A stretch of DNA of 64,000 nt from Octopus sinensis. Taxonomy: Eukaryota. Under the pieces are notes generated by a model, which searched no databases, was not told the DNA's origin, and worked only from the letters and a program-made list of their open reading frames with translations. The stretch lies in the NCBI RefSeq assembly GCF_006345805.1, contig NC_043016.1, positions 11,470,001 through 11,534,000 on the forward strand. The letters are read 5' to 3'. Numbering within the stretch: the stretch's first letter is position 1; every line of letters begins with the position of its first letter. Position numbers and translations under genes: made by a program. Positions 16,673 to 57,582 of this stretch are shown piece by piece.

Positions 16673-16708
16673 CTTTTACGTTTCGAGCCTACGCTCTTCA
16701 ACAGGAAG
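16673..16708 (-). ncRNA. Minimal HHR-like motif, CTGTTGA core
   Basis: Reverse complement reads cttc-CTGTTGA-a-gagc gtag gctc-GAAAC-GTA-aaag. Host element about 16575-16768. Confidence 0.55.
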
Positions 16709-16763
16709 ATACACAGAAAAGAAACACGGAGAGAAAAAAAATGCGTGCAGAAGCTAGCGAATC

Positions 16764-16799
<36 letters not shown>

Positions 16800-17837
16800 G
16801 CATACGCCGTGGAAACCAGAAAACCGGCCCTTATGAGTCTATGTGACTAACTTTAGAACCTGGCTATGCTTCTCTGGTTTGGAAGTTGGAATTTGTCGTT
16901 TGCGAAATTGTTTCACACCGGATGCTCTTTTCAGCACTAACTTGTTTTGCTTGTTGACAGGAGAAACTGACAAACGATGGTGTCTTCTCGCTGTTCTTTC
17001 GTACAAGCAATCGCAGTTTGCAGAGACGAGCAAGCAAACACACAAGCACGCACGACAGTTATCTTCAGTTTCCGTCTACCAAATCTTTGGTTTTGCGCCA
17101 AAGCAATCGCAGGTGACACTTGTCGAAAGCATCAGTTGTCAAGCAATAGTCGAGGGGTGGGGACTAACATATACATACATGTAAATATATATATATCATC
17201 ATCCTCTTCATCCTTTAACGTCCACTTTCCATGCTGGCATGGGTTGGACGGTTTGACTGGCAAAGTCGGGAGGCTGCACCAGGCTCCAATCTGATCTGGC
17301 ATGGTTTCTACAGCTGGATGCTTTTCCTAACGCCAACCACCCTGAGTGTGTAGTGGGACAAACCAAGACCCACAGCCATACTGACAACTTCAAATTCTTT
17401 CCTGCTGGGTTGCAGATGCTTTGCTGGTGAGGTTAGACAAGATCGAAACATGGCATTACTTTTAACATTTAGCTTTGAAGAAAAACTATTCAACAGATGA
17501 ATTGTTTTTATTTTTGAAATTTTCATATTTGAATATATTATTGAAGATATCTCCCTTCAGGGAGTTTATGACTGCTAATTACTTGAACAATCTGTTAAAT
17601 GCAGTTTTACAATACACTGTAATATATAACTCTGCTGTATTTTGTAATTCTTAATACAGAGCACTTCTCTGAAATATTTTTCTCTTCAGCCATACAGTAT
17701 GACTGAGTGTGTGTGTGTGTATTACGTGCATTTAGAGTAAAGTGTCAGAAACTATACGCATGCACGTTCGACCTCGTGTGTACCATTGGCGATTTTTTCC
17801 CTCTGTCTTCCCTTCTCTGGATCTTTCCTTCTCCTAT

Positions 17838-17872
17838 GTTTCCGACGAAGAGCTCCGCTCGAAACGTTAAAC
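17838..17872 (+). ncRNA. Minimal HHR-like motif, CCGACGA core
   Basis: gttt-CCGACGA-a-gagc tcc gctc-GAAAC-GTT-aaac. Host element about 17773-17962. Confidence 0.55.
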
Positions 17873-17962
17873 CCTCCTTCTTTCCTGAGCGTCCAATAAT
17901 ACTTTATTTGTTCCACGTCCTCGCGTTGTTGTTCTTTTTTTTTGTGCTTTCTTGTTTGGATT

Positions 17963-18975
17963 CAGCCATGCTACATGGCAGTGAAACATGGGCCGTGACT
18001 GCTGAGGATATGCGTAAGCTCGCTAGAAATGAAGCCAGTATGCTCCGATGGATGTGTAATGCCGGTACTCACACTCGGCAGAGTGTAAGTACCTTGAGAG
18101 AAACTGGACCTAAGAAGCATCAGTTGTGGTGTGCAAGAGAGACGTTTGCGCTGGTATGGTCATGTGGCGAGAATGGATGAAGATAGTTGTGTGAAAAGTG
18201 CCACCCCTAGCGGTGAGGGAACCTGTGGAAGAGGCAGACCCAGGAAAACCTGGGACGAGGTGGTGAAGCACAACCTTCGAACTTTAGGTCTCATGAGGAA
18301 ATGACTAGAGACCGAGACCTCTGGAAGTTGCTGTGCGCGAGAAGACCGGCAGGACAAGTGAGTCCACAACCCGTGGCCTTCTACATGGGATGGAGCCAGC
18401 CTACGTATGCATACCTTCCCTTCTTGGGACACAAAACTCTACTTGTGAAGACGTGTTGAGGCAAGTGAGGATCAGAATCGAAATCGATCAATGGAAATTG
18501 CGGATGTGCTACCAGTGCCGGTGGCATGTCGAAACTCTGCTTGTGAAGACCCATTGAGGCAAGTGAGGATCAGAATCGAAATCGATCAATGGAAATCGAT
18601 CAATGGAAATTGCAGATGTGTTACCAGTGCCGGTGGCATGTAAGAGAACTTTCCGTTTCGCGACCGTTGCCGGCACTGCCCCGTTTCGTGTCCGTTGCCA
18701 GCCTCGCTGGCCCTCGTGCCGGTGGCACATAAAAAGACACATCCGTTCGTGGCCGTTTGCCAGCTCTGTCTGGCACCAGTGCGGGTGGCACGTAAAAAGC
18801 ACCCACTACACTCACGGAGTGGTTGGCGTTAGGAAGGGCATCCAGCCGTAGAAACACTGCCAGATTTGACTGGGCCTGATGAAGCCTTCTGGCTTCACAG
18901 ACCCCAGTAGAACCGTCCAACCCATGCTAGCATGGAAAACGGACGCTAAATGATGATGATGATGATGATGATGAT
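17963..18975 (+). mobile_element. RTE-clade LINE 3' end with long repetitive 3' UTR
   Basis: AMLHGSETWAVTAEDMRKLARNEASMLRWMC...RRLRWYGHVARM...GRGRPRKTW (frameshifted); ends in (GAT)n. Confidence 0.85.
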
Positions 18976-19513
18976 ATAAACATGCATACACACACACAAA
19001 CACATGTTAAGTATGCGTGCGTGTGTATTTGTATGTGTATATATATAAATGTTATTCACGAATGTGTCTGTCTCCTTGTAATTTATGCATTTGTCTTTTC
19101 TATAATTTATTTACGTATGTGTATGACTATGCTGGTTCCTAGGTTGCTTCAAAAGTAAATAGTCACACCTCGTTGCTATGCTTACTGACAAATGAGTAGT
19201 TATTGTGAAATCTGGTTGTCATAATCATCATCATCATCATCATTGCCGCTGTTTAATTGTTGTGTTGTCAGACAAAGGAAGACGTATGTGCAACTAGAAA
19301 TTGTCTTCTGAGATAAAAAAAAAAAAAAAAACCAATAGAGCTATAGTACTTCTGCTTATTTTTCTGTGATTGTTATCGTTTATGATGTAACGATACATAT
19401 CTGTCTAGCTCTCTATCTATCTATATCTATCTCTCCCCGCTCATTCTATCTATGTATATTTCACAGGTATAGAAATAGATAGATTGATATGTGTGTGTAC
19501 ACGTACATGATTA

Positions 19514-19739
19514 CACACGAAGGGGTGCTGGAAAGTTGCTCCTTTTAGGTGAAAGAAGATACAGGAGGGTCAGTTAATTATGATTTTATTTAAAATAGTC
19601 TCCTCTTAGATTCACACACTTACTGCAGCCGTCTTTCATTTTTTTCCTAAGCTCTGTAAAAAGAACTTGGAAAGTTGAGCCTCCAACCAGACCTTTCACA
19701 ACACCCTTAAAACCACGAACTTTTCAGCACCTCCTCATA
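19514..19739 (-). mobile_element. Mariner-derived MITE
   Basis: TIRs ggggtgctggaaagtt / aacttttcagcacctc. Opposite-orientation relative at about 9905-10085 encodes KLQDRCNKCVNLR..EYVE*. Confidence 0.65.
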
Positions 19740-19796
19740 CATATATATATATTGATAGACTCTGTGTCTGTGTGTGTCTACATATAGATGTATATG

Positions 19797-20168
19797 TGGA
19801 GGGGCAATGGCTTAGTGGTTCGGGCAGCAGACTCGTGATCCTAGGACCGCGGTTTCGATTCCCAGATCGGGCGTTGTGAGTGTTTATTGAGCGAAAATAC
19901 CTAAAGTTCCACGAGGCTCCGGCAAGGGGTGGTGGCGAACCTTGCTGTACACTTTCACCACAACTTTCTCTTACTCTTTCTTCTTGTTTCTGTTGTACCT
20001 GTATTTTTAAAGGGCCAGCCTTGTCACGCTGAATCACTCCGAGGACTACGTTAAGAGTACACGTGTCTGTGGAGTGCTCAGCCACTTGCACATTAATTTC
20101 ATGAGCAGGTTGTTCTGTTGATCAAATCAGCTGGAACCTTCGTCGTGGTAACCGACGGAGTGCCACGA
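19797..20168 (+). mobile_element. tRNA-derived SINE family C
   Basis: tggcttagtggtt...ggtttcgattccc head. Related pieces at 4800-4985 (-), 9230-9480, 14270-14370 (-), 15935-16070. Confidence 0.7.
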
Positions 20169-20734
20169 TAGATGTATATACATGTGTGTGCGATGTTTTA
20201 AGTAGTTGGAATTCATTGGCTTACTACATTAATTATATTAGCGCCAACTTTACCATTAAAATTCTATTTCCAGATTTTCGTGATTTCAATTTTTTATCGA
20301 TTACTTCAAGTGTCTCTCTTTTTGTGTTTTGGTCAAAGAACAGTCATCTGCACAAGCCATCAGGAATTGTTTGCAAGATTTTGTAGAACACTTCTGTTAT
20401 AAATCCAATTCTAATCTAGGATATTGTAAACGAACATTAAATTGATATTGTTCTACATATGCACGACAATACCAATTAACATTGTCCTACATGTGCATCT
20501 GGTAGTGGGCTACATGTTTGGGGAGTTCCAGTGTTTTGAGGAATGTAAAACCACCTCTTAGCCATTGTTGTTTCTAAGTCTACTCTGACCCAGAGAAGTA
20601 GTACCTACCAGGGTCCCAGCCATGGGCTTAAGTAGCATGTAACCACTTGAGCCAGGGTATATTGAATTCATAGGGTGCAGTGTAGTATATTTGGATGTGA
20701 ATTAATTTTACTTTTCTGGCAAAGGAATTTTATT

Positions 20735-21410
20735 GTATCACCAGATGCTGAGCAGATGAACTGACAACAAACAATCAACAATCAGTCAACCAGTCCAGTT
20801 AACAAACAACTGTTATCAAGGCATGCAGAGCTGAGATATTTCAGTTAGTGTATGACCAATGTGACTAGTTCATTTAGTGTTGAGCTAATGCTACCATCTG
20901 TAGCTGTGGGTCATGCGCAGATGAAATATTTCAATTAGAAAAAGACCAATGTAGCTAAAACCTAAGTCAGATGTTCAAATCAATGGTGAATATCACTAAA
21001 TGCTGAGCAAATGAACAGACAAGAAACTGTCAATGGCTAGTATCAACCAGTCCAGTTAACAAACAACTGTTATCAAAGCATGCAGGGGTGAGATATTTCA
21101 GTTAGTGTATGACCAATGTGACTAAAACCTAAGTCAGATGTTTGAGTCAATGGTGAATGTCACTAGATGCTGAGCAGATGAATGGACAAGAAACCGTCAA
21201 TGGTCACAATCAACCAGTTTAGTTACAGAACTACTGCTATTAACTGTAGTTGTGGCATTCAGCGATGAGATATTTCAGTTAGTGTACGACCAATGTGACT
21301 AAAACCCAGGCCAGATGTTTGAGTCAATGGTGAATGTCACTAGATGCTGAGCAGATGAATGGACAACAAACTATCAATGGCCAGGATCAATCACTTCGGT
21401 TAGTGAGCTA
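20735..21410. repeat. Complex tandem repeat, about 170-255-bp units
   Basis: atgctgagca(g/a)atgaa recurs near 20744, 21000, 21166 and 21344; ga(g/a)atatttca(g/a)ttag...gaccaatgt recurs four times. Confidence 0.85.
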
Positions 21411-21633
21411 AAGCCTGAGTATGTATTCTTTTACTCTTCTACACATTTAGTCATTTGACTGCGGCCATGCTGAAGCATCACCTTAAATGATTTTAGTCAA
21501 AGAAATCAACACCAGGATTGTGTTTGTAAGCCTAGTACTTATTCTATCGGCCTCTTATCCTGAACCATTAAGTTACAAGGATGTGAACATGCTAACATCA
21601 GTTGTCAAGAAGGCTGCACCAGGCTCCCATCTG

Positions 21634-21671
<38 letters not shown>

Positions 21672-23857
21672 CTGTATGCATGTATTTGTGTGTGTCCCCT
21701 ACCACCACCACCTATCACTTCATGCCAATGTTGGTGTGTTTATGTCCCCGTAACTTAGAGGTTTGGCAAAAGGGACCGATAGAATAGGTAGGTACTAGAC
21801 TTACAAATAATTAGTAGTCCTGCAGTGCTCCAGCATGGCCGCAGTCAAATGACTGAAAGAAGTAATAGAATCAAAGAATAACCGTGCAGTTATTTATTTT
21901 GCTCTTTTACATGTTTTGTGTAGTGTCGCTTAAACGGTACCCAGTACACTTTGTGAAATGGTTAGCATTAGGAAAGACATCCAGCTGTAGAAACCATTGG
22001 AGCCAGGTGCAGCTCACCAGCCTGCTAGGTTCTGTTAAACCATTCAACCCATGCCAGCATGTAAAATAGATTGATGATGATGATGGTTTTACATATTTCA
22101 ATCATTGGACTGCAGCCATGCTGGAGCATTGTCTTTCCATCAACCAAATTCACTGACAAGACCCTGGGCTGTAATAGAAAAAAAAAACTTCCCCAAGGTG
22201 TCATTCATTAGGATTGAACCTAGAACCATATGGTTGCCAAGCAATCTTCTTAACCACATTATCGTCTGTTCTTTTATTCTTCTCTCTACACAATTTGATT
22301 TTTGATTTTTTCCTTCTTTTATTTTTATTGTTGTTTTTATATTTCTTTTCATGTGGTAGGAGAGTAAATGTCTTTAAATTCCAATAAAGTGAGGAAAGAA
22401 TTTGGTAGGGAGAATGTTTTTTTTTCCCCCCCACAAAGATACTCCTATTTGGAAGGACATACCCCAATTTTGACATGAAGAAAAAAAAAACCAAATTTAC
22501 TAAGGGAGGGAGAAGCAGGGAACCCAACAAATACAGAACTCAGGTCTCACAAGATACCAGCATTTCCACATACTTTGCCAAAATGTTTTGTTTGATTTAT
22601 ACATACAGATCATGTTGATCTTTTATGCTTTACATTTATTTATTTATTATTTTTTTTTAGTTCTACAGTATTTGAAACATTGTAAGCTTAAAACATAGAC
22701 AATTCCCATCACACACACACCTCTGGAGTTAAAATTGGGTCATGAAAAAAGGAAATGCATTCTTTTATTCTTTTTTCGTTTCAGTCATTTGACTGCGGCC
22801 ATGCTGGGGCACCACCTTTAGTCAAACAAATCAACCCCAGGACTTATTCTTTGTGAGCCCAGTACTTATTCTATCAGTTTCTTTTGCTAATTTTCTGAGT
22901 TATGAGGATGTAAACACACCAACGTTAGTTGTCAAGCAAACGTCCACTTTCCATGCTGGCATGGGTTGGATAGTTTGACGGAGGACTGGCAAAGCCGGGC
23001 GGCTGCACCAAGCTACAATCTGATCTGGCAAGGTTTCTACAGCTGGATGCTTTTCCTAACACCAACCACTCCAGGAGTGTAGTGAGTGCTTTTTACATGC
23101 CACCGGCACGAGAGGCTGTCAGGTGGTACTGGCATTGACCACGCTGGCATTGACCACTGGCACAGGAACCAATCCGGAAGGACTGGCATCGACCATGCTT
23201 GAATGGTGCGCTATGGTCTCACTTGGCTTGCCGGGTCTTCTCAAGTACAGCATATCTCTAATATATATATATTTATTCATATATATATACATATGGACTT
23301 ATTTCAGTTTCTGTCTACGAAATCCACTCACAAGGCTTTGGTTGGTCTGGGGCCACAGTAGAAGACAGTTACCCAAGGGGCCATGCAGTGGGACTGAACC
23401 TGGAACCATGTGGTTGGTAAACAAGCTACTTACCATACAGCCATCCTACACATGGCAAATTTTGATTACTTAGCTTTGAGGAAGAGGAAAAGTAGCTTGC
23501 TTAACACCAAGAAATATGATAATCTATAAGCATGGATTATTCTCAAATCAAGCTTATCACCCATAATCATTTATCGTCATCGTAATCATTTTAATACTAA
23601 TTTTTTCTTGTATGGGTCAGAGTTTTTATTTATTCTTTTTTGAGGTGGGTGGGGCAGATTTTCTACGGTTGGATGCTGTCGTCAAACCCACACCTGTTTC
23701 CAAGTGAGATAATATTATTCCTCATGGCTAGACACCACTTGTACGACGGTGACACCCGTTTACAACTATCTCAATACACGGACACACGTATATAACCATT
23801 CATTACACACACTCTCACTCACTCATACACACACACACACACACACACACACTCACT

Positions 23858-23897
<40 letters not shown>

Positions 23898-24191
23898 TAG
23901 GGGCATTAGGTACAATGCTTATCTGTCAGCATGGGTACGCTGCGCAGTTGCTCGGATACCCCACGGATCTGAGGACCGATTGCTATTTTATGTATACTCT
24001 GGCTTGCTGTCAGTAAATAAATGTAGGGATCCCATTGCATTTCTTTGTCCGAAGTATGGTGGGGGGGCGAGATGGAGAAGCGGGTATATTACGGTTAAAA
24101 CTACCCTGTCTGCGTGTTCATGTCACCTGCTCGAAATAGTAACCAAAACAACCTTTAATCACACCACACTCTTAAACCATTTTTATTGCGG

Positions 24192-24590
24192 AAAGCTTGC
24201 TTACCAACCACATGGTTCCGGGTTCAGTCCCACTGCGTGGCACCTTGGGCATGTGTCTTCTACTATAATCTCGGGCCGACCAAAGCCTTGTGAGTGGATT
24301 TGGTAGACGGAAACTGAAAGAAGCCCGTCGTATATAATATATATAATATATATAATATATATGTATATGTGTGTGTATATGTTTGTGTGTCTGTGTTTGT
24401 CCCCCCCCCCAACATCGCTTGACAACCGATGCTGGTGAGTTTACGTCCCCGTAACTTAGCGGAGACCGATAGAATAAGTACTAGGTTTACAAAGAGTAAG
24501 TCCTGGGGGTCCATTTTGCTCGACTAAAGGCGGTGCTCCAGCATGGCCACAGTCAAATGACTTAAAACAAGTAAAAGAGTAAAAAGAGAA
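24192..24590 (+). mobile_element. SINE family A
   Basis: Same head, core and tail. Other + copies at about 34930-35340, 36690-37235, 38260-38470, 41690-41850, 44378-44770. Confidence 0.85.
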
Positions 24591-25289
24591 TAGAGCGCAT
24601 CCCACTCGAAATTTCATTACCCTTAACTGCAGAAAGTGGCTTAAATGCCAATCTATCTTTTGTTAAGGAATGTCATGTCTGACACTAGTCAAGTTTATTG
24701 AGGTAACGTCGCTTGCAGAAAATATTAATTCTATTTTTTTTTTTTTTTTTTGGTAGCTATTCAACATCATAACTGGGTTAACCATGAAATTTAATTTCGT
24801 TGTAGTGAAATAAATAGGTAAAAAAAAAAAAAAAAAAAGGGGTACTTTATATAATGTAGTTTTTAATATTCTTAATGTCTTGAATAAAGACGATAGGGTG
24901 TCGGTCGGGACGAAGCGCATTCTGTCTTTTGTCTGTGCGACGAAGGTCGACATGGGATTAAACAAACTCTAAAAACACGCACGATTCATTTACCTTACTT
25001 TTTTTTATTCACAACTCATTTATGAATATTAATCGTAAACACACACACACACAAGTGCATGCCAACAGTTCGTTCGTAATTCCTTCAGACAGATGCTTCT
25101 CGCAAGCAAGCTTACATGCAAATTGCACGATGCAACAACATATGCGAATGCCCGTTGCACGTACGGAAGCGCGCGCACACACAGACACGCATAGAGAGAG
25201 AGAGAGAGGCCAGCTCCGAACAATATAGTAATGCAATGGTAAATGCACCAAGCTAACACCACACACACATATATATATATATATTATAT

Positions 25290-25323
<34 letters not shown>

Positions 25324-25336
25324 GCCAGAAATAGCC

Positions 25337-25399
25337 AGATAACCGAAGAGATGGTGTTGTGGATTCCCACTTCGGCATCTGAAACTCAGAGTTTTATCT
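25337..25399 (+). ncRNA. Type I HHR motif with CCGAAGA core
   Basis: agataa-CCGAAGA-gatg...catc-t-GAAAC-tcaga-GTT-ttatct, inside a ~180-bp island (25322-25500) between (TA)n tracts. Confidence 0.6.
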
Positions 25400-25499
25400 T
25401 GACTATCGATCGAGTAATGTAACATATAATTGTATAGATAAATTTCCTCTATTTACATAATATTGAGGTCTCTTCTTTCTTTTGTTATCTTACCGTTTT

Positions 25500-25584
<85 letters not shown>

Positions 25585-25738: not shown

Positions 25739-25782
<44 letters not shown>

Positions 25783-29337: not shown

Positions 29338-31160
29338 AGACATAGAATGTAAGTGTATGTGTGATTTTTTTTTCTACTCTAGGCACAAGGCCCGAAATTG
29401 TGGGGGATGGGACCAGTCGATTAGATCGACCCCAGTATGCAACTGGTACTTGATTTTAACAACTCCAAAAGGATGAAAGGCAAAGTCGACCTCGGCTGAT
29501 GTATGTGTGAATACATGTATATGAAATGTATGAGTGTTTTTATATATTTGTGTTTACGTTTGTATTGTGTGTGTGTGTTTATAATTTTCTGTTAATTACT
29601 AATGGCTAATTATGAAAGTAAATTAGTTTCTATGTTCTGTTCAAATGACATATTTTCGTATAACTATTTAAGAATACAAGAAAAACCCACGTAATAATAT
29701 GTGTCTATTTGTGCTTGAGAGAGAGAGAGAAAAGAGAGAACGACAGAATAATAGAGAAAAGAGAGACAGAATAAGAAGAGAGAGAGAAAGAATTAGATAA
29801 AGAGAGAGAGTAAGCAAGTAAAGATTGTCTATATATTTGCTACAATAATTCTTCACTCCGACTGCAAAATAAAACAGCAACTACATTTAAGAAATACAAC
29901 AAATAAATGCATTGATGATGGTGAAGTCTATAAAGATGGTAAATTAATTGGAGCACCTTATATTCGTTGAAATATTTTGCCTTTGCCTTTTTTCTTTTAT
30001 ATTTTACTATATGAAACAACAAATCTCATTCCACCACTTCACCCTAAAAAAAAACAAACCATTTAATGATAAATAACAAAGGGGAAAACAAGACAATGAT
30101 CCATTGCCGTTACATTTTAAAATATAGAGAGAGAGTATTGTTTAATCGTTGTTGCATATTCTATGAGATTAATGTCTTATGTGCCACTTTCATCTATCTA
30201 ATTCCATTCTGCAAACCATTTTCCACTAATAAAAATCATTCCGTTTATATTTATGCAAAATGTCATAATTTCTTCTTCTGTTACGCATTAATCTCTTCAT
30301 TCATTTCTTTCTTTTTCTACGTTTTTTTTTGCGGGGTTTTTTTTTTTGCCTCGGAAATGTTATTGATATATTTTTTTGTTTGTTATTTTTTTTGTTTTGT
30401 TTTGTTTTTGCTTTATTTTGTCGTTTGTTTATTTACTTTTTATGTGGACTTTCTATTCTTTCCAAAACAGTTGTGTGGTGAAATGCGTGTGCGTAAACAT
30501 ACATTTTTTTTGTGTGAGTATATATCTATATAAATCTCACACATATGTATGTATAATCTATAGATAATGTATGTGTATGTATATTATAAATGCATGTATT
30601 TCAGGTCAAACCAACATGTGCAACCTTTAATCGAGACATTTTTTTCTCTCTCCGTTGCTCCCTCCCACCCTCTCTGTTTTCTGTGATTATTAGAAGAGCG
30701 TAGGCTCGAAACGTCGAAAACTTCCATTTATCTTGAGCGTCAAACTAATACATCATTTTTGTTGCTCCCTCACATGTCTCTCTTGTTTTTTGTACAATTT
30801 TGCACCATATATATATATATATATATTTGTGTGTGCGCGCCTGCGTATGTGCTTATGTATATGTATGCATGAATGTACATATGTTTGTATGTGTGTATAA
30901 TGTAACGTAATGTGGAGGATATAAATATTTTTGTTTAAATTGAAACTGAATTTGTCTCGCGACTCGAGTTTCACAGCAGTGCATTTGATTATATATTTAT
31001 ATATATATATGCATTTATATATGTTTATATGTAAGTCTATATATGCATGCATTTATAAGTCTTACATATATACATGCATTTATGTATGTATATATTGTAA
31101 GTCGTCTAAGAGTTCATAAGTTGGAAAAAAATACGGTCATATATTTGTCAGTAGAGTGGA

Positions 31161-45176: not shown

Positions 45177-45354
45177 ATATACACATACACACACACACAC
45201 ACAGAAAGAGAGATTAAATCTGCTATTGTTCCTGGAAGTTGCTTTTTTATATGTTCTATGGGCTGCTTGAAGCTTACTAACTTCCTACACCTGGCTCCTT
45301 GGTTCTTACTTTTACATATCATTATACATACATACATATATATATATATTCGCC

Positions 45355-45545
45355 ATGATAGATTGCTAGCCACTACACATTCTTTATTTTCTCTCTTTGT
45401 TTCTTTCTGTGTTCCTTTCTGTGGAAGAGCGTAGGCTCGAAAGATTAAATACTTTTTCACTTCCCAAGCATCAAACTAATACATCTGTTTGTTGTCTACA
45501 CCACCTGTCTTCGTCTTTTGATTTTTTTTCGTGAATTCTCCCTAT
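45355..45545 (+). mobile_element. Decayed copy of the CTGTNGA HHR-bearing element
   Basis: CTGTGGA-a-gagc gtag gctc-GAAA at 45419-45442 (stem III damaged). Flanks resemble 46050-46215 and 57450-57640; a further decayed copy is at about 30670-30805. Confidence 0.55.
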
Positions 45546-45551
45546 ATATAT

Positions 45552-45838
45552 ATTGGGCAAGGACGATGTACTGTAATAGCTTGGGTTTTAAGGGCCCACA
45601 ACTGTTTAACTCTCTGCCGAAGCATCTGAGGAGCCTCCATGGAGTGAATGTAGACGTTTTCAAATGTGAACTTGACCTCTGGCTTGAGCCAATATCTAAG
45701 CAAGAAACTCAAAAGAGGTCAGTAACATTGAATTCCATCCTTTACCAAAAAGCCACTCCAACAAAGGTAGAAAGATGATCACAATGGCAGTGCTCCAGCA
45801 TGGCCACAGTCAATTGGACTGAAACATATAAAAGAATA
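45552..45838 (+). mobile_element. CR1/L2-like LINE 3' end
   Basis: NSLGFKGPQLFNSLPKHLR...VDVFKCELDLWL; tail ggcagtgctccagcatggccacagtc...actgaaac is shared with SINE family A. Confidence 0.75.
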
Positions 45839-46087
45839 TACATATATACATACACACTCACACACACACAGGTGATGTTAAATAGGAAACTTTAAAATGT
45901 AGTATTCAAACCCTGTTTTGGGTATATCCCTCCTTTGTAGTGTACCTTGAGGGCATGTTCACCACTTACAGCTACCAGGCATCATACACGGTACTGCACT
46001 TTAGTCACAGTATCATGTATGACGTCCAGTACCTGTATGTGTGTGTGTGTATTTTTTTTCTCTTCTCTCCTTGATTTTTCTGTGTCC

Positions 46088-46123
46088 CTTTCTGTCGAAG
46101 AGCATAGGCTCGAAACGTAAAAG
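46088..46123 (+). ncRNA. Minimal HHR-like motif, CTGTCGA core
   Basis: cttt-CTGTCGA-a-gagc atag gctc-GAAAC-GTA-aaag. Stem III reduced to the ACGT palindrome. Confidence 0.6.
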
Positions 46124-46289
46124 ACTTTTTCTATTCCTGAGCGCTATACTAATACATCTGTTTGTTTGTACACCACCTGCCTTCGTCTTTTGTTTATTTT
46201 CGTAAACTTCCCTTTATACACACCACACACCACACACACACACACCACACACACACACACAACACACACACACACCACACACACACACA

Positions 46290-46322
<33 letters not shown>

Positions 46323-49050: not shown

Positions 49051-49191
49051 TAATAATAGTAATAATAATAATAAGACACACCAGGAAAAAATGACTAAGC
49101 AACTGTGTGTATGAATGCAAACAAATGGAGTGAACAAGGCTTGTCAACCAAATAGTATGGTGTCAGAACTCAAAGCACTTCACTTCTTTTG

Positions 49192-49250
49192 AGCTCTGAT
49201 GAAGCATTCAATGAGTGCATTGTATCTTCTAGCAGAAACAGCTGTAAGCT
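49192..49250 (+). ncRNA. Type I hammerhead ribozyme (weak stem II)
   Basis: agct-CTGATGA-agc...gca-GAAAC-agct-GTA-agct. Same ACAGCTGT stem III as 52027. Confidence 0.65.
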
Positions 49251-50101
49251 AATGAAGTTGATTGCATAATTTCTTATTGTCTTGACATCTATTTAATTTC
49301 TTATATGTATATACATGTATACATATGTCTGTGTGTGTGTGTGTGTGCATGTATATTTGGTCAATTAAACTAATGCCCCCACGTCTTGGCTGCTACTTGG
49401 TCTTATTGAGTTCAGAGGAATTAAAGCCAAAGTTTACCTTGTTAGAGTTTAAACTCAGAATGTAAAGTGCCAGTGGTACTGCAAAGCATTTTCCTAGGAT
49501 TTTGCAATCATTCTGTTTTTTTTTTTCTTTTTTTTTCTTCTAACATGGGTATAGGGTTTGAAATTAGTGTGTATGAGATCATTATTAGGGTTAGTCAGTT
49601 ATACATCCAAACTCCAGCAGTTGATTTGGGAGAAAAAGAAACAGGAAGAAAAGGTGCGGTGGTGGTGGTGGCGGCAATGGCAGGTTGCAAGATGATTTGA
49701 AATTTGAAGGCATTAGTGTCAAGTCTTTCCTGTGTGGTTGGGTTTTTTGTTGTTGTTGTTGTTGTTTTTTGTTGCTGTTTTCTTTTTCTGTTCTTGCAAA
49801 CACTGACAACATCTGATGATATTTATTTTGATCGCTTATAAATATTTGTGAAATCTTACATAAAATAGAACAGATGCTCAAATAATTTTTTAAAAAAACA
49901 ACAACAAATAAACAAAAATAAATATATAAGCTAATGTAACATTTTCTTTCTCTTCCTTTTTTTTTTAATTTTATGTTTTTTTTTGTTTTACTAAATGAAA
50001 TTATCCTGATTAATCAAATTTCAAAACTTATTCAAGCATCCATTAAGATGTGAATTTGTTATGAATATAACATTTCTACTTAACAAAGGAAATATAATAA
50101 T

Positions 50102-50144
<43 letters not shown>

Positions 50145-51240
50145 GTGATATTAGTAATAGTAGTAGTATTAGTAGTAGCAGTAGTCATAGTAAGATTAAA
50201 TAAAAACGACAACACAAAAACAGATCATAATACATACCCAAGGCATACAGAGACGTGTTTGGTAGTGCACTGAAAGCACGCAATATAAATAAGACAATTG
50301 AATAATAATAATTATAACGACCACAATAATAATTATAACAACGATGATGATGATGATTAATGTTGTGGCAAGTGTATAAAAGAGCATACAAATCCACCTG
50401 GTGCTTTGTTTCGTTTTTATCGTACTTATCACAAATCAGTAGAGAAAAATATTTTGTAATGGAATTTGTGGAGAAAGATATCCAATGGAGCTTACAATAC
50501 AAAGTTAAATCTGTCTTCGAATCATGCACAGACGTGTTTGACTCACTCACCATGCATGAGTGGTTTATTATATATATATATATATATATATACATATGAT
50601 ATGATATAAATTAATGAAATTAACCATTTTTTAAAGTAGATTTTCCTATTGATTACACTATTTACAAGCAGAAATCACTGTTGCTACTTATATCCACGTT
50701 GTATGCGTTAAATCAACTCGATTATCATTGTTAATTCCAGTCTTGGAATGAATACCTGGAGAAAATCTAAGGAACATTGCTACATCATCTCTTCTTTGAT
50801 GACCTACTCGACCAGTTCCGTACTTTAACCCTTCAGCATTCAGATTATTCTGTAAAATGTAGTTTCTTATTTATTCTTCTATTCATTCTGGTCAACCCCA
50901 GGACTTACTCTTTGTAAGCCTATTACTCATTCTATTGGTCTCTTTCGCCAAATCATTGAGTTTCACCAAATCATTATGGGGGACATAAACACACCAACAG
51001 CAGTTGTCAAGCAATGGTGGGGGGGGGGACAAAGACAAACACACACACATACATACATACATAAATGTTCTAAAATCTTCATAGCCTTGGTTTTTTTTTA
51101 TCTCATTTTTAAAAAAGAATTTTTATATATACACACGCTAATATATGACCTACGTTGGACTCCTTATTTGCGTAATCACCAGACCTGGAGCTTAACTATA
51201 GTCTATCAATAGCACTTACTCAGCATTACCTCTCATAACC

Positions 51241-51272
<32 letters not shown>

Positions 51273-52026
51273 CATATATCTATGGGTGTGTGCGCGTATG
51301 TATATCAATATACACTTCTTTCTTTCTCTGATACAATAAACACCTCCATCTATTTTTAGAAACTTGACCATTATATCTTATTCTTCCTTTTTGAGGTTTA
51401 ATACTTTCTTTAATAACCACCACCACCCCCTGTACCATTTTCTGTACCCATCTTAGTGCTTTTCAAACATATCACCCCACCCCCACTCCTCACACATATT
51501 CATTCCTTTACATTCTTATCTCTTCCTATCCCTCCCCTACTCCTCTCCCATCCCCCCTCGTAATATCTTGACCACCAACTAACACCCCTTGTTTTCATTT
51601 TTTTTCCTTTTCTCTTCCTCTTTCTCTTTCTTTCACCTATTCCTTTTGACCATTTTAACATACACAACTTTTCTCTCCTCTCTATCTACTTAATACTACT
51701 ACTACTACTACATTCTCAAACTTTCACTCACACTGCAAGACTCCTTTGAATGAACAGTGCATGGAATCTATATTCCCACAATTTCCATTTGTAGTGACAA
51801 AATATGAACTCCTATTGGAATTTACATACCATGGACAAGAAGTATTTCTACCACTTCTGCCCACCACTTTCCTTGGATAATGGAACTGCAACTATAATAT
51901 CCTACATATATTTTAATTTTTACTTTTATTCTCTTATTTCCCTTTATATTTCTTATTTTTCACCCTTTTCCAAAATAACTCCTTATACTGAATTTTACTA
52001 TTCCCTCTATTTAACCACCTCACATC

Positions 52027-52074
52027 GTCTCTGATGAAGGAATATCCCTAATTTTCCAGAAACAGCTGTAAGAT
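52027..52074 (+). ncRNA. Type I hammerhead ribozyme, canonical core, palindromic stem III
   Basis: gtct-CTGATGA-a-ggaa...ttcc-a-GAAAC-agct-GTA-agat. Stem III ACAGCTGT is self-complementary. Confidence 0.8.
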
Positions 52075-52131
52075 TTTCTCTTTATAAATGTCTTGAAAAT
52101 TCCACACAGCCTTGGCTTTGTTGTCTCATTT

Positions 52132-52197
<66 letters not shown>

Positions 52198-55094
52198 CAT
52201 ACATATACATACTTTAGTTGGGAGAGAAAAAAGTACCCATAAACATTTACAGGACCTCTGAGAATAGTGGGAGGGAGGAATGGAGGAGGGAGAAGGTGTC
52301 TTCAAACCAAGAAACCTGGTCCCCAAATGCTTGCAAACTGTGGACCTCCCCCCCCCTAGAAACACCCTAAATGCCAGAAAGGCATCTGATTGTAGAAATC
52401 ATGCCAAAATGTTGTTTGTACAAATGAGATATGGTCCTACAAATGTGTTATGTAATATATATATTATTTTCACATCCATTTTTCCATGCTAGCATGAGTC
52501 AGATGTGCTACTGAAGTATCGTTTTTACAGATAGGTGCCTTTCCTGCTGCTAACCCATACCTGCTTTTCAAGTAAGAGATGTGTGTGTTTGTGTTAATAA
52601 CAAACGAAAAGTATTCATCACCATAAAGTAATTTAATTTAATTTGATTGGCTCATATAACTACTGAGAGTTTCTCTTTGCAAAAACAAAACTAAGTGAAG
52701 AAGTGCACGTCTTTCAGACAAGGAAATTTCCAGTATAGATTTCAAGTAATCAAACACACACACACACACATTTGCATACATACAGATATATAGATATACA
52801 TATATTTATATAAGTTACCCCTTTCATGTACCATAATTGATCCATACGGTCGGTGCCAAACTCTTGTTTTCTTAGCATCAATTAGATCATTGGCAAACTT
52901 CCTCTGGTTAAAGATATGTGTCTACCACAAATAATTTACACAGAAAAGCCTGCTGCCTCTCGTTTCCTCATTGATACATAAAGAAAGAGGTATAATAAGA
53001 AATAATACCAATAAAAAAACTTCTCTTCCCATATAAGATAAATGAAGTAAAATTCCAATAGCATATTTAAACTAGCAGCTTATAAACATACTGTCCAGCT
53101 TTGTATCCACTCATGCCATTCTCTTTCTAAATACATAACCCATTCTTCTGAAACACCCTTAACCTTCTTGATACCAACTTGTCTGATACCACCTCCGGTT
53201 CTATGTTCAAACTTCCTGTTTTTTAAAGGGATTTAATTTTAAAATTTCCATCAGAATTGCATCTTAATTTATGTTCCAAACACCAGCTTCATAAATACAA
53301 AGTTATTCTAAATGATTCATTATTTTCAAAATCAATTGAAACTAGCACAGTATTTCAGTAAAAATATAGTTACAAAAGGGTTAAATTCTTCCATCCAACC
53401 TTCATCATCATCATTGTTTAACGTCCATTTTCCATTCTAGCATGGGTTGGACGGTTCGACCAGGGTCTGGGAATCCAGGAGGCTGCACCAGGCTCCAGTC
53501 TGATCTGGTAGTGTTTCTACAGCTGGATGCCATTTGAATTTATATTCCAAACACCAATTCAATAAATGACAGTTAGTTCAATAAATTCTTCAGTATTCTG
53601 AAAATTAATTGAAATAAAGGCTTATTTCAATAGAAATATGATAAAAGGATTATTATCCAGATTTTTTTACATCATTCTTCTACTAAACTTCAGCAGTTTG
53701 ACTTTTAATTTATTTAATCAACCCTGAAAGGGTGAAGATCAAACTTGACCTCAACAAGATTTGAACTTTTTTTTTTACTGATGGCCAAACAAATCTGCAA
53801 ACACACAGCTTTAAATAATGGATTCAAATGTTGGTACAAGGTCATCAGTTTTTTGTTGTTGTTTTTTAAGGGAATTAGTAAGTCAGAACCAGTAATACCA
53901 GTACTTGACTGGTACTTCATTTTGTGAACCTTGAAAGAAAGGAAGGCTGAATTAACCTTCACTAGATTTGAATCCAGAACAAACACCACAAGTCATTGTA
54001 CCTGACACCCTGATGACTATACCCATTCACCAACTGTGTGTCATGGCAAATCATTTTAGAACCTCTTCCACAATCTTTTCAGCTGAGATTTTACTGGTAC
54101 TTGGTTGCTTAACCCTTTGGTTACCATATATATACCTGTTGACATACACTGCCTTTCTTTCAACTAATGTCAAAAACAACAAAGGATTTAGTAAAATAAC
54201 TGTTTTTATTAAGCTGGTGTTTGGAACATAAATTAACCCTTTTGTTACCATATTGCTGTATGGGGGAATCTGTACATCCCCATGATTGCCTAAGTGAACT
54301 CTACTAGTTAGTATAAATGAGCATGTGCAGAACAGTCTGGGAAGAGTGTCATATGTGCAGTCATAGTGTATAGGTTGTAGGGGCATTTGAATAGAGATAT
54401 CATGGCATGCTTGTTGAAAATACACTGATGTTACCCAAGAGAAAAGCAAAGGCTGATACAGCTTGGAACCTGTGATGTTGCAACTCATTTCTACAGTTGA
54501 GTGAACTGGAGCAATGTGGAATAAAGTGTCTTGCTCAAGAACACAATACATAGCCCGGTCTGAGAATCAAACTCACTACCTCATGATTGTGAGCCCCATG
54601 CTCTAACCACTGAGCCATGTGCCTTTTGAGAAGATTAAACAAGTTCCCTTGTTGGCTCATTAACCAAGATTTTGCTATTTCTAGCAAGTAGAGTGATGAC
54701 GGAGCAGCACCACTTGCGATTTTGTCGATCGGGTTACTTAGGAAGCTGCAATATATATAGCATGGCAGGTGGCACCGTATTCAATAGCTGCAAATGTAGA
54801 AGAAGAAAAAAACAAAACAAAGGAAGAAAGAAATGAACTATGGTGAACTTTTACTTAAGCTTCAAGTTAATTAATCAAATTAACAAGAGATTAGAAATAA
54901 TCGAGGTGAAATAAGTGCAAGTCATATTGTATGCAATTCATATTTGAGAAAGAAAACTGTGTGTGTGTGTGTGTGTATCTCAGATACACATTCATATATG
55001 TTCTGTGTTCTTATATGACATTAAATACATGCAACATTATATTTATATATATATATATATATATGCGGGAAAGAAGCAACAAGAATGGATAGGT

Positions 55095-55185
55095 TTTTAG
55101 TACAATCGTTTCATACAAGGACAGGCTTTATTAAAAGTTGTAAAAATTACAGCATATAAACGTGTCCCGTACTCATCAGCTAAAA
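55095..55185 (-). ncRNA. Type I hammerhead ribozyme, inverted copy of 55383-55473
   Basis: Exact reverse complement of the + strand motif (tcatcag at 55173-79), in the left arm of the foldback. Confidence 0.85.
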
Positions 55186-55382
55186 TACATGTGAGTTCTC
55201 TAGACATCCTAGTGGTTGAGGCTATACTCATGAAGTAATGTAGATAATTAATAAGACTGTACATCATCTTTAAAGAACTGTAATGAACTTTGGAAATCTG
55301 TTTATGTTTATGTTACTTAATTATCTACATTACTTCATGAGTATAGCCTCAACCACTAGGATGTCTAGAGAACTCACATGTA

Positions 55383-55473
55383 TTTTAGCTGATGAGTACG
55401 GGACACGTTTATATGCTGTAATTTTTACAACTTTTAATAAAGCCTGTCCTTGTATGAAACGATTGTACTAAAA
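55383..55473 (+). ncRNA. Type I hammerhead ribozyme, canonical core
   Basis: ttttag-CTGATGA(55389-95)-stem II gtacgggaca...tgtccttgtat-GAAAC(55456-60)-gatt-GTA(55465-67)-ctaaaa. Stem I is a 6-bp ttttag/ctaaaa helix. Confidence 0.85.
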
Positions 55474-55626
55474 ACCTATCCATTCTTGTTGCTTCTTTCC
55501 CGCTTATAATCACCCCACATTACTGTATTGTTAAAACAGTATAGTTTTTTTTGGTGCATCTAAGTTAGGTACCATATTCAAGTAAATTCATTTAAATTAA
55601 CTTGAATCTTTATTGCTTTATATATA

Positions 55627-55671
<45 letters not shown>

Positions 55672-56034
55672 CATCATCATTAGCGTCCGTTCTCCATGCT
55701 AGCATGGCTTGGACGGTTCAACTGGGGTCTGTGAAGCTGGAAGGCTTCATCAGGCCCAGTCAGATCTGGCAGTATTTCTACGGCTGGATGCCCTTCCTAA
55801 CGCCAACCACTCCGTGAGTGTAGTGGGTGCTTTTTACGTGCCACCCGCACAGGTGTCAGACAGAGCTGGCAAACGCCCATGAACGGATGGTGCTTTTACG
55901 TGTCACCGGCACGGGGGCCAGGCGAGGCTGGCAACGGACACGAACGGATGGTGCTTTTACGTGCCACCAACACGGGGGCCAATGTTGCATGTATTTAATA
56001 TCATCTGAGTAATAATATATGCTCTGTGTGTGTA

Positions 56035-56073
<39 letters not shown>

Positions 56074-56218
56074 GGGTGCATCTTTCAGTTTTGGTCTCTC
56101 GAATCCCATGGCTATTGTAAAGTACAGTGGTCCGAGATTCCACAGAGTAGGATTAAAACTGGAACCATAGTGTATGTGTTTAAATGGTGAAAGATGACTT
56201 CATAAATATAACAATATA

Positions 56219-57213
56219 CAGGGTGTCCCCCAAAAATTGATATCATTTCGTAGAACAGCTAATTCTCACTTAAATTTTAACAAAATGTGTAAAAGCTTAA
56301 CCCTTTCGCTACCGTATTTCTTTTGAGATGCTCTGCGTTTCTTTCAATTGATTTTAAATATTACAAAGAATTTAGTAAAATAACTTAGTTGTCATTAAGT
56401 TAGTGTTAAGAACATAAATTGTGACTAAGATTTGGTGGAAGATTTTAATTCAAAACTTATGAAAACAAAACATTTGTACTACAGACCAAGAGGTGGTTTC
56501 AGCCAGGTTGGTAACGAAAGGGTTAAGAATTGTTTCTCTATTATATATTTTAACCCTTTTGTCACCATATTTCTGCTGAGATGCTCTCTGTTTCTTTCAA
56601 TTAATTTTCAATATAACAAAGAATTTAGTAAAATAACTTAGTTATCATTAAGCTAGTTTTAGGAACATAAATTGTGACTAATGTTTGGTGGAAGATTTTA
56701 ATTCAGAACTTTTGAAAAGAAGACATTTATGCTACAGAGCCAGAGCCAGTTTCAAGCAGGTTGGTAACGAAAGGGTTAAGTTAGGATAGGGCATGCCAGT
56801 GATAATAACAATGTGCTGTTGGAATGGCCACCACATTCACCTGACTTGACACCTTGTGATTTTTTTTTTATCAATGGGGCAATGTGAAAAGATTGTTCTA
56901 TATCCCCCATCTTCCCAGAAGCCTAGAGGAACTCAAGCAGAGAATCACTGAGGTGCTGGAGAATGTTACGCAAGCCATGCTACAGCAAATTTAGCAGAGG
57001 CTGGACTACTGACATGATGTGTGCAAGTTTGTGACATTGGTTATAAAGTCTACGTTCCTCTGAATCTCTTGTTTGAATTTTGAGAAATAAGTCTGTTGTT
57101 GTTCAACATGAAACCTTTTTAATTTCATTTGCCTCAGATGTAGTAACTCAGATATTCACATTTTAAATGATATTTTAAATGATGTCAACTTTTTGGTGGG
57201 TGCAGGACACCCA

Positions 57214-57214
<1 letters not shown>
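56219..57214 (+). mobile_element. Deleted Tc1/mariner element with transposase remnant
   Basis: TA|cagggtgtcc...ggacacccag|TA termini. 56820-57030 encodes WPPHSPDLTPCDFF..GNVK..LEELKQRITE with disablements. Confidence 0.8.
56297..56779 (+). mobile_element. Tandem pair of TTAA|CCC...GGG|TTAA MITEs (piggyBac-like ends)
   Basis: Two ~230-bp units with ttaacccttt/aaagggttaa ends, inserted in the Tc1 element. Related copies at about 6155-6382, 36250-36690, 42385-42612, 53160-53385, 60160-60985. Confidence 0.65.
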
Positions 57215-57250
<36 letters not shown>

Positions 57251-57546
57251 TAGGTGAATGAATTATCCCATGTTTATCGTCAGCATGGAAAATTCGTTTA
57301 ACCGAAACCTGGGTAGCAAATTCACGTCAGAAAACACGGTTGAAGCGACCTGTCAAGGGTAGAAACTCCAGGTTCATGTGTAGAAATTTGTGTGTTGTAT
57401 ATGAATAAATGAAAGAATCGAGTCGAATGAAGATGTTAACAAAAAAACGGGAAGGTTTACGAAAATAAACAAAAGACGAAGGCAGGTGGAGTACAAACAA
57501 ACAGTTGTATTAGTATTGTGCGCTCAGGAATAGAAATAAAACAAGT

Positions 57547-57582
57547 CTTTTACGTTTCGAGCCTACGCTCTTCGACAGAAAG
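57547..57582 (-). ncRNA. Minimal HHR-like motif, CTGTCGA core
   Basis: Reverse complement reads cttt-CTGTCGA-a-gagc gtag gctc-GAAAC-GTA-aaag. Host element about 57450-57640. Confidence 0.6.

What the first reader, a model, noticed from the sequence alone, without database searches (positions are those of the whole stretch)
16673..57582. Family-wide non-canonical hammerhead core: CUGUNGA (A6U)
Seen: four copies of one element read CTGTCGA (46092; 57572-78 minus), CTGTTGA (16698-704 minus) and CTGTGGA (45419) at the CUGANGA position. They retain stem II gagc/gctc and GAAA; three also keep CGTA and the aaag strand of stem I. U at position 6 is shared, so it is the family consensus rather than decay. 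Stem III is only ACGT with no loop, so folding would need a dimer. Established: A6 is nearly invariant in natural HHRs. Inference: either an active natural core variant or an element that kept spreading with an attenuated ribozyme.
Basis: partly seen in the sequence, partly recalled or inferred. Interest (0 to 1): 0.75.

Follow-up and report, generated by a model that had tools for sequence, protein, structure and literature searches.

The report
Variant hammerhead in Penelope-type mini-retroelements
A short retroelement present in about 20,000 copies carries, about 100 bases from its tail, the small dimer-type hammerhead ribozyme motif typical of Penelope-like jumping genes, but with U in place of the near-invariant A at core position 6; this change likely cripples self-cutting, which would mean these elements can spread without it.

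Summary
Four window copies read CUGUNGA, then A, GAGC/GCUC, GAAAC and GU(A). Genome-wide, 19,405 exact cores exist and only 255 (1.3%) have A6.

The element ("family A") is non-coding and up to about 700 bp. It has variable 5' truncation and a fixed 3' end, usually abutting (TA)n. The motif lies on the sense strand, 97 nt from the 3' end.

The motif matches the published minimal hammerhead of Penelope-like elements (PLEs) in four features:
- no helix III, with a palindromic ACGU;
- a G10.1-C11.1 pair;
- a 4-bp helix I.

The genome holds abundant RT + GIY-YIG PLEs. The main PLE family ends in (TA)n and has its own U3-A8 minimal hammerhead about 65 nt from its end.

A ~235-nt sister family (B) carries the same motif with A6. 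It reads canonical CUGACGA in 1,553 exact copies and CCGACGA (U4C) in most of the others. Helix I covaries between the families (C:G versus G:C).

U6 is therefore a derived, family-wide variant of a real PLE-type hammerhead. I could not test whether it cleaves. Published mutant data and the lack of element ends at the GUA site favour an attenuated ribozyme.

Verdict: a new variant of a known kind, of moderate interest.

The parts
46052..46215 (+). Family A copy. It is 5'-truncated and lies between (TG)n and (CA)n runs. The hammerhead-like motif spans 46088-46123: helix I 5' strand CUUU 46088-46091; core CUGUCGA 46092-46098 (U6 = 46095); extra A 46099; helix II GAGC/GCUC 46100-46103 / 46108-46111; GAAA 46112-46115; CG 46116-46117; U16.1 46118; A17 46119; AAAG 46120-46123.
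45350..45543 (+). Family A copy of a diverged subfamily. Its core is CUGUGGA at 45419-45425, with helix II and GAAA intact. The stem III / cleavage-site segment has decayed (GATTAAAT instead of CGTAAAAG).
57446..57639 (-). Family A copy with core CUGUCGA at 57572-57578 on the minus strand. The exact core pattern spans 57555-57578. CGUA and AAAG are intact.
16574..16767 (-). Family A copy with core CUGUUGA at 16698-16704 on the minus strand. The exact core pattern spans 16681-16704. (TA)n lies at its 5' side and (CA)n beyond its 3' end.
30668..30779 (+). Diverged family-A-like copy. GAAGAGCGTAGGCTCGAAACGT is intact at 30692 onward, but the CUGU part of the core is replaced (TATTAGA).
17765..17964 (+). 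Sister family B copy (C4 type). Helix I GUUU 17838-17841; core CCGACGA 17842-17848 (A6 = 17845); extra A 17849; GAGC/GCUC 17850-17853 / 17857-17860; GAAAC 17861-17865; G 17866; U 17867; U17 17868; AAAC 17869-17872.
13065..13262 (-). Sister family B copy (C4 type), followed by (TA)n. Core CCGACGA is at 13185-13179. Helix II is broken by a G-to-A change (ACTC at 13170-13167).
13297..13394 (-). Decayed family-A-like copy. Its 3' end lies a few bases from the 5' end of the family B copy.

Best explanation
The four copies belong to a non-coding retroelement family with at least 19,405 copies, and their CUGUNGA...GAAAC-GU-A block is a minimal, dimer-type hammerhead of the Penelope-like-element kind in which A6 has become U. 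This change likely leaves the ribozyme crippled, and the family would then have kept amplifying without efficient self-cleavage. Shown directly: sense-strand orientation, from variable 5' truncation and a fixed 3' end next to (TA)n; the motif's place 97 nt from the 3' end; the features it shares with published PLE minimal hammerheads; a sister family with the canonical core; abundant RT + GIY-YIG PLEs whose main family has a minimal hammerhead at a similar place and the same (TA)n ends. Inferred: the element is copied by a PLE reverse transcriptase; A6 is ancestral and U6 derived; U6 greatly lowers cleavage; the block stays conserved because the folded RNA, and not only catalysis, matters to the element, for example in template recognition.
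For: Motif architecture matches features that Cervera & De la Pena 2014 list as emerging beyond their search descriptor. These are a nucleotide between 9 and 10.1 (the extra A), the G10.1-C11.1 pair, palindromic 15.2-16.2 with no helix III (ACGU) and a short helix I. Sister family B has the same block with A6: 6,564 exact matches, of which 1,553 are the fully canonical TTTCTGACGAAGAGCTCCGCTCGAAACGTTAAA. In the first 100 rows, A6 occurs in 99, C4 in 71 and U4 in 29. Helix I covaries between families at pair 2.4:1.4 (CG 12, GC 6, GU 4, UG 1, unpaired 2 of 25 rows). The hammerhead block is the best-conserved stretch between the A and B majority sequences. The same holds among the 15 more diverged copies found with a whole-element profile: 71.7% identity in the block, against 42.0% upstream and 62.7% and 53.6% downstream. 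N7, free in hammerheads, is the most variable core position (T 48, A 23, C 15, G 14 of 100). Element anatomy: fixed 3' end, variable 5' ends, a 10-bp target duplication in one copy, full length about 650-700 bp with no ORF. (TA)n follows the 3' end directly in 15 of 17 A copies and 14 of 20 B copies with a recognisable end. PLEs: PF01541 gives 5,029 candidates and 147 matches, with open frames up to 883 aa. L066 has RVT_1 plus a C-terminal GIY-YIG. The main PLE family ends in (TA)n in 4 of 4 loci read and carries UUGAUAA-GGUUC...GAACC-GAAAC-AUGU-A near its end. That motif is a 0-mismatch descriptor hit in 3 of 20 PLE loci. Literature: PLE hammerhead mutants do not affect insertion in vitro, and RT starts about 85-92 nt 3' of the cut site. 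A natural A6C variant has low activity.
Against: I saw no paper that tests A6U. No PLE carrying this exact motif or tail was found: 20 + 8 PLE loci contain only unrelated insertions or no motif. PLE dependence therefore rests on architecture, on (TA)n ends and on a weak similarity of 3' termini (TTTTC..AAACTT). Helix II never varies between A and B, so covariation support comes from one helix I pair, which is probably one evolutionary event. Helix II has 4 bp, whereas the published PLE motifs tend to 6-8 bp. U6 is kept across all family-A subfamilies while the rest of the element diverges. That could equally mean U6 is functional. The ViennaRNA dimer minimum-energy fold is an extended duplex (-18.8 kcal/mol), not the hammerhead-type dimer (-11.9).
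Confidence: 0.6

Rival explanations
1. The U6 core is an active natural hammerhead variant. The A6U minimal hammerhead still self-cleaves as a dimer in vivo, perhaps with host factors or a different metal ion, and is kept by selection.
For: U6 is fixed in every family-A subfamily seen (15 of 15 readable copies in the sample taken without reference to the core; 98 of 100 rows), while neighbouring N7 and the flanks vary. The rest of the core, helix II, GAAAC and helix I stay intact. Natural variants at position 6 (A6C, active with Mn2+) and position 4 (U4C, viable in a viroid) are documented. Canonical PLE minimal hammerheads themselves cleave poorly in vitro, so low in-vitro rates need not mean no function.
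Against: Changes at position 6 gave low activity in the published mutational analysis as quoted by Perreault et al.. A6C lowered the Mg2+ rate by more than 10,000-fold relative to Mn2+ in one ribozyme. A minimal hammerhead lacks the tertiary contacts thought to buffer core variants. Element 5' ends show no peak at the cut site: about 5 of 26 truncated loci fall within +1..+4, similar to positions further 3'. Cleavage is dispensable for PLE insertion in vitro.
Confidence: 0.18
2. The block is not hammerhead-related in function. It is a conserved stem-loop, such as a recognition hairpin for the reverse transcriptase, and its likeness to a hammerhead in family A is incidental or purely ancestral.
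For: One-mismatch descriptor hits do occur by chance: 3 non-family hits in 664 kb scanned on both strands. Helix II never varies, so the fold is not proven. The predicted monomer fold is one long imperfect hairpin in which U4-G5-U6 pair with A15.1-C15.2-G16.2. Two of three related lineages carry a core change (U6, C4), as expected if catalysis is not what is conserved.
Against: The coincidence would have to cover the extra base after A9, G10.1-C11.1, the ACGU palindrome, an H at position 17, a helix I that covaries, a place about 100 nt from the end of a (TA)n-targeting retroelement, and a sister family with a perfect CUGACGA core in 1,553 exact copies. The genome's main PLE has a bona fide minimal hammerhead at a similar place.
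Confidence: 0.12
3. The element is a tRNA-derived SINE read on the opposite strand, and GTTTCGAGCC is its polymerase III B box.
For: The reverse complement GTTTCGAGCC resembles the B-box consensus as I recall it (no call supports this). tRNA-derived octopus SINEs are described in the literature (passages).
Against: Truncation is at the end that would be the 3' end of such a SINE, while the other end is fixed. ARAGORN finds no tRNA in the window. Rfam finds none at gathering score in the window, nor at E up to 10 in 45300-46300. The putative T arm does not pair when read by eye.
Confidence: 0.02

Closest known systems
Minimal hammerheads (min-HHR) in the pseudo-LTRs of metazoan Penelope-like elements (Cervera & De la Pena 2014, PMC4209133; Results, Discussion and Methods read)
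   Same: Type I topology; no helix III, with palindromic 15.2-16.2, so a dimer is required; an unpaired nucleotide between 9 and 10.1; a G10.1-C11.1 pair; a helix I of 4-5 bp; thousands of mostly solitary copies on truncated elements; a U3-A8 core variant present in the same genome's autonomous PLE.
   Different: Position 6 is U in the whole family. Helix II has 4 bp rather than the 6-8 bp common in those motifs. The carrier is a non-coding element of 700 bp or less. No RT-encoding PLE with this same motif was found.
Natural hammerhead core variants: A6C of the phage Bcep176 hammerhead, the U4C viroid variant and U3-A8 covariation (Perreault et al. 2011, PMC3088659; Naghdi et al. 2020, PMC7151607; passages read)
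   Same: A naturally occurring change at an otherwise conserved core position (6 here; 4 in sister family B). The U3-A8 covariant is also present in this genome.
   Different: Those are single loci with tertiary contacts, and they were tested biochemically. Here the change is A6U, in a minimal motif, fixed in about 19,000 copies and untested. My searches of the held library for A6U with 'hammerhead ribozyme' (3 papers hold both terms, 2 listed; judged by title and abstract start only) showed no report of a natural A6U hammerhead.
Non-autonomous hammerhead-bearing retroelements: animal non-LTR retrozymes (Cervera & De la Pena 2020, listing only; Li et al. 2026 preprint, abstract read) and the Sm-alpha SINE-like elements of Schistosoma (review passages)
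   Same: Short non-coding retroelements carrying a type I hammerhead. They are proposed to derive from, or be mobilised by, PLEs.
   Different: Retrozymes are typically tandem arrays with canonical cores and abundant circular RNAs. Here copies are mostly dispersed, 5'-truncated and flanked by (TA)n. The close pairs examined are 98%-identical local duplications. No RNA data are available.
Poseidon PLE of Anolis carolinensis (Frangieh et al. 2024, PMC11167929; passages read)
   Same: A hammerhead lies about 85-120 nt upstream of the point where reverse transcription starts. Catalytically dead hammerhead mutants still insert in vitro. No RNA-seq reads end at the cut site.
   Different: That element is autonomous, and its hammerhead overlaps the start of the ORF and has a canonical core.

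Membership tests
PLE-type minimal hammerhead (min-HHR) | Catalytic boxes C3-U4-G5-A6-N7-G8-A9 ... G12-A13-A14 ... A15.1/U16.1-H17 | tested here: not met
   10 of the 11 fixed core positions are present, but position 6 is U family-wide. The sister family meets the feature in 1,553 exact copies.
PLE-type minimal hammerhead (min-HHR) | Extra nucleotide between A9 and G10.1 | tested here: met
   An A (U or G in two single copies) lies between A9 and GAGC in 25 of 25 aligned A and B copies.
PLE-type minimal hammerhead (min-HHR) | G10.1-C11.1 closing pair of helix II | tested here: met
   GC in 25 of 25 rows.
PLE-type minimal hammerhead (min-HHR) | No helix III; palindromic 15.2-16.2, so helix III can form only between two copies | tested here: met
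   GAAA-CG-U: ACGU is invariant in 25 of 25 rows. The main PLE has ACAUGU.
PLE-type minimal hammerhead (min-HHR) | Helices supported by covariation among consensus families | tested here: inconclusive
   Helix I has one pair with changes on both sides (CG/GC/GU). Helix II never varies. This is probably a single evolutionary event.
PLE-type minimal hammerhead (min-HHR) | Lies in the terminal repeat or 3' part of an RT + GIY-YIG Penelope-like element | tested here: inconclusive
   PLEs are abundant, and the main family has its own min-HHR near a (TA)n-flanked 3' end. No PLE with the family-A motif was found in 28 PLE loci.
PLE-type minimal hammerhead (min-HHR) | Self-cleavage at H17 as a dimer | not testable with these tools
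Rfam hammerhead families | Covariance-model score at or above the gathering threshold | tested here: not met
   No hammerhead match in the window at gathering score, nor at E up to 10 around two copies. The same models also miss the canonical family-B copies and the PLE motif at E up to 10. They do not see hammerheads that lack helix III, so this result says little.
Non-LTR retrozymes | Head-to-tail tandem units, each with a hammerhead, giving circular RNAs | tested here: inconclusive
   Most copies are solitary. Of 6 close pairs fetched, 5 are 98%-identical local duplications and 1 is two independent copies. Circular RNA is not testable.
tRNA-derived SINE | tRNA-like 5' head with A and B boxes on the sense strand | tested here: not met
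   ARAGORN finds 0 genes and Rfam 0. The sense strand, set by the truncation pattern, is the opposite one.

The most novel reading that the evidence does not exclude
CUGUNGA (A6U), and the sister family's CCGANGA (U4C), are catalytically competent natural hammerhead cores that work in dimeric PLE-type ribozymes. This genome would then hold a three-state natural series (canonical, U4C, A6U) of active ribozymes. The consensus used to search genomes for hammerheads would be too strict at positions 4 and 6.
Probability: 0.15. Interest if true: 0.75.

Novelty: new variant of a known kind. Interest (0 to 1): 0.45.

Why it matters
Minimal hammerheads on Penelope-like elements are known, but their role is unsettled. 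They cleave poorly in vitro, and one PLE inserts in vitro without them. This genome offers a natural comparison between related short elements with the same motif in three states:
- canonical, in at least 1,553 copies;
- U4C, in most of the other ~5,000 exact family-B matches (71 of the first 100 listed rows);
- A6U, in at least 19,000 copies.

If U6 and C4 are dead, their success shows that ribozyme catalysis is dispensable for large-scale amplification. The conserved block would then serve another purpose, such as RNA folding or template recognition. If they are active, the hammerhead consensus is wider than assumed. Either result follows from a simple kinetic comparison, and it bears on how hammerheads are searched for in genomes.

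Tried and rejected
1. Rfam: no hammerhead match in the window at gathering score, nor at E up to 10 in 45300-46300. The same is true of canonical family-B and PLE motifs, so Rfam is uninformative for this class. All of its hits were microsatellite-driven microRNA look-alikes.

2. tRNA-SINE reading on the opposite strand: rejected.

Whether RNA ends map to GUA|A stays open.

4. Autonomous partner:
- A majority sequence of family A blasted against 20 PLE loci gave only unrelated insertions in the wrong orientation or place.
- Eight more loci from other PLE families gave no descriptor hit at 1 mismatch or fewer, and no similarity.

5. 5'-end test for in-vivo cleavage, counting copies whose 5' end abuts (TA)n:
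- Family A, positions -16..+14: 26 distinct loci in the first 100 rows. About 5 fall at +1..+4, about 6 upstream and about 12 further downstream.
- Family B, positions -12..+5: 37 loci, about 23-25 at +1..+4. This looked like a peak.
- Family B, wider window -5..+25: 6 of 40 loci at +1..+5 and 33 spread over +6..+25.
- So neither family has a peak at the cut site. There is only a drop in 5' ends inside the motif. My first reading of a difference between A and B was an artefact of window choice.

6. Thermodynamics: the hammerhead-type dimer is not the minimum-energy dimer. This is uninformative.

7. Pairwise block identities among 8 copies (82% in the block against 59% and 67% in the flanks) are biased, because those copies were picked by part of the block. 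One search is the less biased figure.

8. Close same-strand pairs as PLE-like tandems: 5 of 6 fetched pairs are recent local duplications. This is not evidence for tandem insertion.

9. Lunse, Weinberg & Breaker (RNA Biol; dated 2016 in the reference list), on PLE hammerhead variants cleaving as dimers, is not held. It may already list core variants such as U6.

10. Supplements of Cervera & De la Pena 2014 were not opened. They may show molluscan motifs.

Full report
**Observation.** All four match CTGTNGAAGAGCNTAGGCTCGAAA without mismatch, and a fifth, degenerate copy lies at 30688-30711. 100 shuffles of the window gave 0 matches. Three of the four keep CGTA and AAAG. The window is G000:C20:11470001-11534000, in a genome of 2.72 Gb and 13,516 contigs. 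From size and repeat content I take it to be cephalopod-like; this is inference from memory and was not tested.

**U6 is the family consensus.**
- CTGNNGAAGAGCRTAGGCTCGAAA has 19,405 exact matches genome-wide and 0 for the reversed control.
- In the first 100 rows, position 6 is T in 98, C in 2 and A in 0.
- In the same rows, position 7 is T 48, A 23, C 15 and G 14.
- The A6 form has 255 matches (1.3%), spread over different subfamilies.
- I also took a 664-kb sample without reference to the core (the window plus three 200-kb blocks). A whole-element profile found 24 copies there.
- In that sample, 15 of 15 family-A copies where position 6 can be read have T. Three more family-A-like copies lack or have lost the position. 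The remaining six belong to a sister family.

**The element.**
- Copies share a fixed 3' end (...TTTTCGTAAACTTTCCCTT) and have variable 5' ends. One copy has a 10-bp target-site duplication.
- Longer copies extend about 530 nt upstream of the motif, through a unique region into CA-rich tandem repeats of about 66-82 bp. No ORF is present.
- The strand bearing the hammerhead-like motif is therefore the sense strand of a 5'-truncating retroelement. This rejects a tRNA-SINE reading on the other strand.
- Position 17 lies 97 nt from the 3' end.
- (TA)n follows the end directly in 15 of 17 copies with a recognisable end. Seven further copies had no recognisable end.

**Match to a known kind.** Cervera & De la Pena 2014 defined minimal hammerheads in Penelope-like elements (PLEs). 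These have no helix III and so need a dimer. Helix I is short, and an unpaired nucleotide sits at the 5' end of stem II. The authors stress three features that were not in their descriptor: the nucleotide between 9 and 10.1, the G10.1-C11.1 pair, and palindromic 15.2-16.2. Family A shows all three, namely the extra A, GAGC/GCUC and ACGU, plus a 4-bp helix I (CUUU/AAAG). It deviates by U6 and by a 4-bp helix II.

**Chance level.** A descriptor scan of the 664-kb sample on both strands gave 0 canonical hits and 12 one-mismatch hits. Nine of those are this element or its sister, and 3 look like chance. A single near-miss is therefore not rare, and the case rests on the added features below.

**Penelope-like elements in this genome.**
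- The GIY-YIG family gives 5,029 candidates and 147 matches among the 150 scored, many in open frames of 600-883 aa.
- One such frame has RVT_1 followed by GIY-YIG.
- The main PLE family ends in (TA)n in the 4 loci read. About 65 nt before its end it carries UUGAUAA-GGUUC...GAACC-GAAAC-AUGU-A.
- This is the documented U3-A8 covariant core with A6 and a palindromic ACAUGU. It is a 0-mismatch hit in 3 of 20 PLE loci.
- Its terminus (GTTTTCAAACTTC...) weakly resembles that of family A.
- No PLE with the family-A motif itself was found in 28 loci.

**Sister family B.**
- The profile search also found a family of about 235 nt, flanked by (TA)n, with the same block but loop UCC. Two copies lie in the window.
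- Its block has 6,564 exact matches. In the first 100 rows, position 6 is A in 99. Position 4 is C in 71 and U in 29.
- The fully canonical TTTCTGACGAAGAGCTCCGCTCGAAACGTTAAA has 1,553 exact matches.
- U4 is too frequent to be CpG decay of C4. The neighbouring CpG (C7) is T in only 3 of 100 rows, and U4 travels with other diagnostic bases.
- Between A and B, helix I pair 2.4:1.4 switches from C:G to G:C or G:U, while helix II never varies.
- The block is the best-conserved part between the two families.
- The same holds among the 15 more diverged profile hits: 71.7% identity in the block, against 42.0% upstream and 62.7% and 53.6% downstream.

Taken together, the motif descends from a canonical PLE-type hammerhead. 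By parsimony, U6 (family A) and C4 (most of family B) are derived states.

**Does U6 cleave?** This could not be tested. Rfam models miss even the canonical copies.

Published work as I read it:
- Core changes are rarely tolerated.
- A natural A6C variant has kobs below 0.1 per minute and prefers Mn2+.
- A U4C viroid variant is weak in vitro but viable in vivo.
- PLE minimal hammerheads cleave poorly even when canonical.
- Hammerhead-dead mutants of an Anolis PLE insert normally in vitro. Reverse transcription there starts about 85-92 nt 3' of the cut site, and no RNA-seq reads end at the cut site.

A genomic proxy gave no peak at the cut site in either family, only fewer 5' ends inside the motif. 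The proxy was the position of 5' ends of truncated copies that abut (TA)n. Element boundaries therefore do not map to GUA.

**Verdict.** This is a PLE-type minimal hammerhead on a short non-coding retroelement, with a family-wide A6U change. The most likely reading (0.6) is an attenuated or dead ribozyme. Its folded block stays conserved for another reason while the family amplified to about 20,000 copies. An active U6 core (about 0.18) is not excluded. The kind is known. Notes from this scan report the same kind in other genomes. The U6 family, with its canonical and U4C sisters, is a new variant. My literature searches found no report of it (for A6U; for octopus with hammerhead; for cephalopod with hammerhead; judged by listings). 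An octopus repeat annotation that I read in passages lists many unclassified SINEs and active Penelope families but has no occurrence of the word 'ribozyme'.

Noticed in passing
L047 (G000:C6:103268869-103272055), motif at L047:1362-1406 (-): A chimeric copy. It is family A from its 5' part up to GAAACGTAAAA, then continues with the family B 3' region. The switch lies at the hammerhead block, as template switching or recombination at the shared motif would give.
   Followed up: no
genome-wide pattern rows: 5' ends of truncated copies that abut (TA)n are spread evenly over the region 3' of the motif, including the cut site. They are several-fold rarer inside the hammerhead block, in both families. 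Possible causes are reverse transcriptase passing the structure in an all-or-none way, or junction microhomology. The cause is not resolved.
   Followed up: partly
L169, L170, L172, L173, L174: Close same-strand pairs of elements are 97.7-98.5% identical local duplications. The units measure 200-1,549 bp and include the element plus its (TA)n. This suggests microsatellite-mediated duplication or tandem insertion.
   Followed up: partly
window 46084-46128 and 17833-17877: The predicted monomer fold is one long imperfect hairpin. In family A, U4-G5-U6 pair with A15.1-C15.2-G16.2. In family B, G5-A6-C7-G8 pair with C15.2-G16.2-U16.1-U17. U6 thus lengthens an alternative, non-catalytic helix.
   Followed up: no
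L066:1791-2470 and family A 5' part (L041): The main PLE's 3' untranslated region and family A share a layout: C/A-rich tandem repeats, then unique sequence, then the hammerhead, then a short tail and (TA)n. No sequence similarity was detected between them.
   Followed up: partly
window 13263-13300 (-): A family B copy starts a few bases after the 3' end of an older, decayed family-A-like copy. This is consistent with insertion at the tails of earlier copies.
   Followed up: no
window (place not located): The window holds 100 N (count).
   Followed up: no
L140, L146, L075; window 45323-45866: (TA)n, (CA)n and (CATA)n microsatellites give many sub-threshold Rfam microRNA matches (mir-297, mir-3149, mir-1277 and others). 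These are artefacts of simple repeats.
   Followed up: yes
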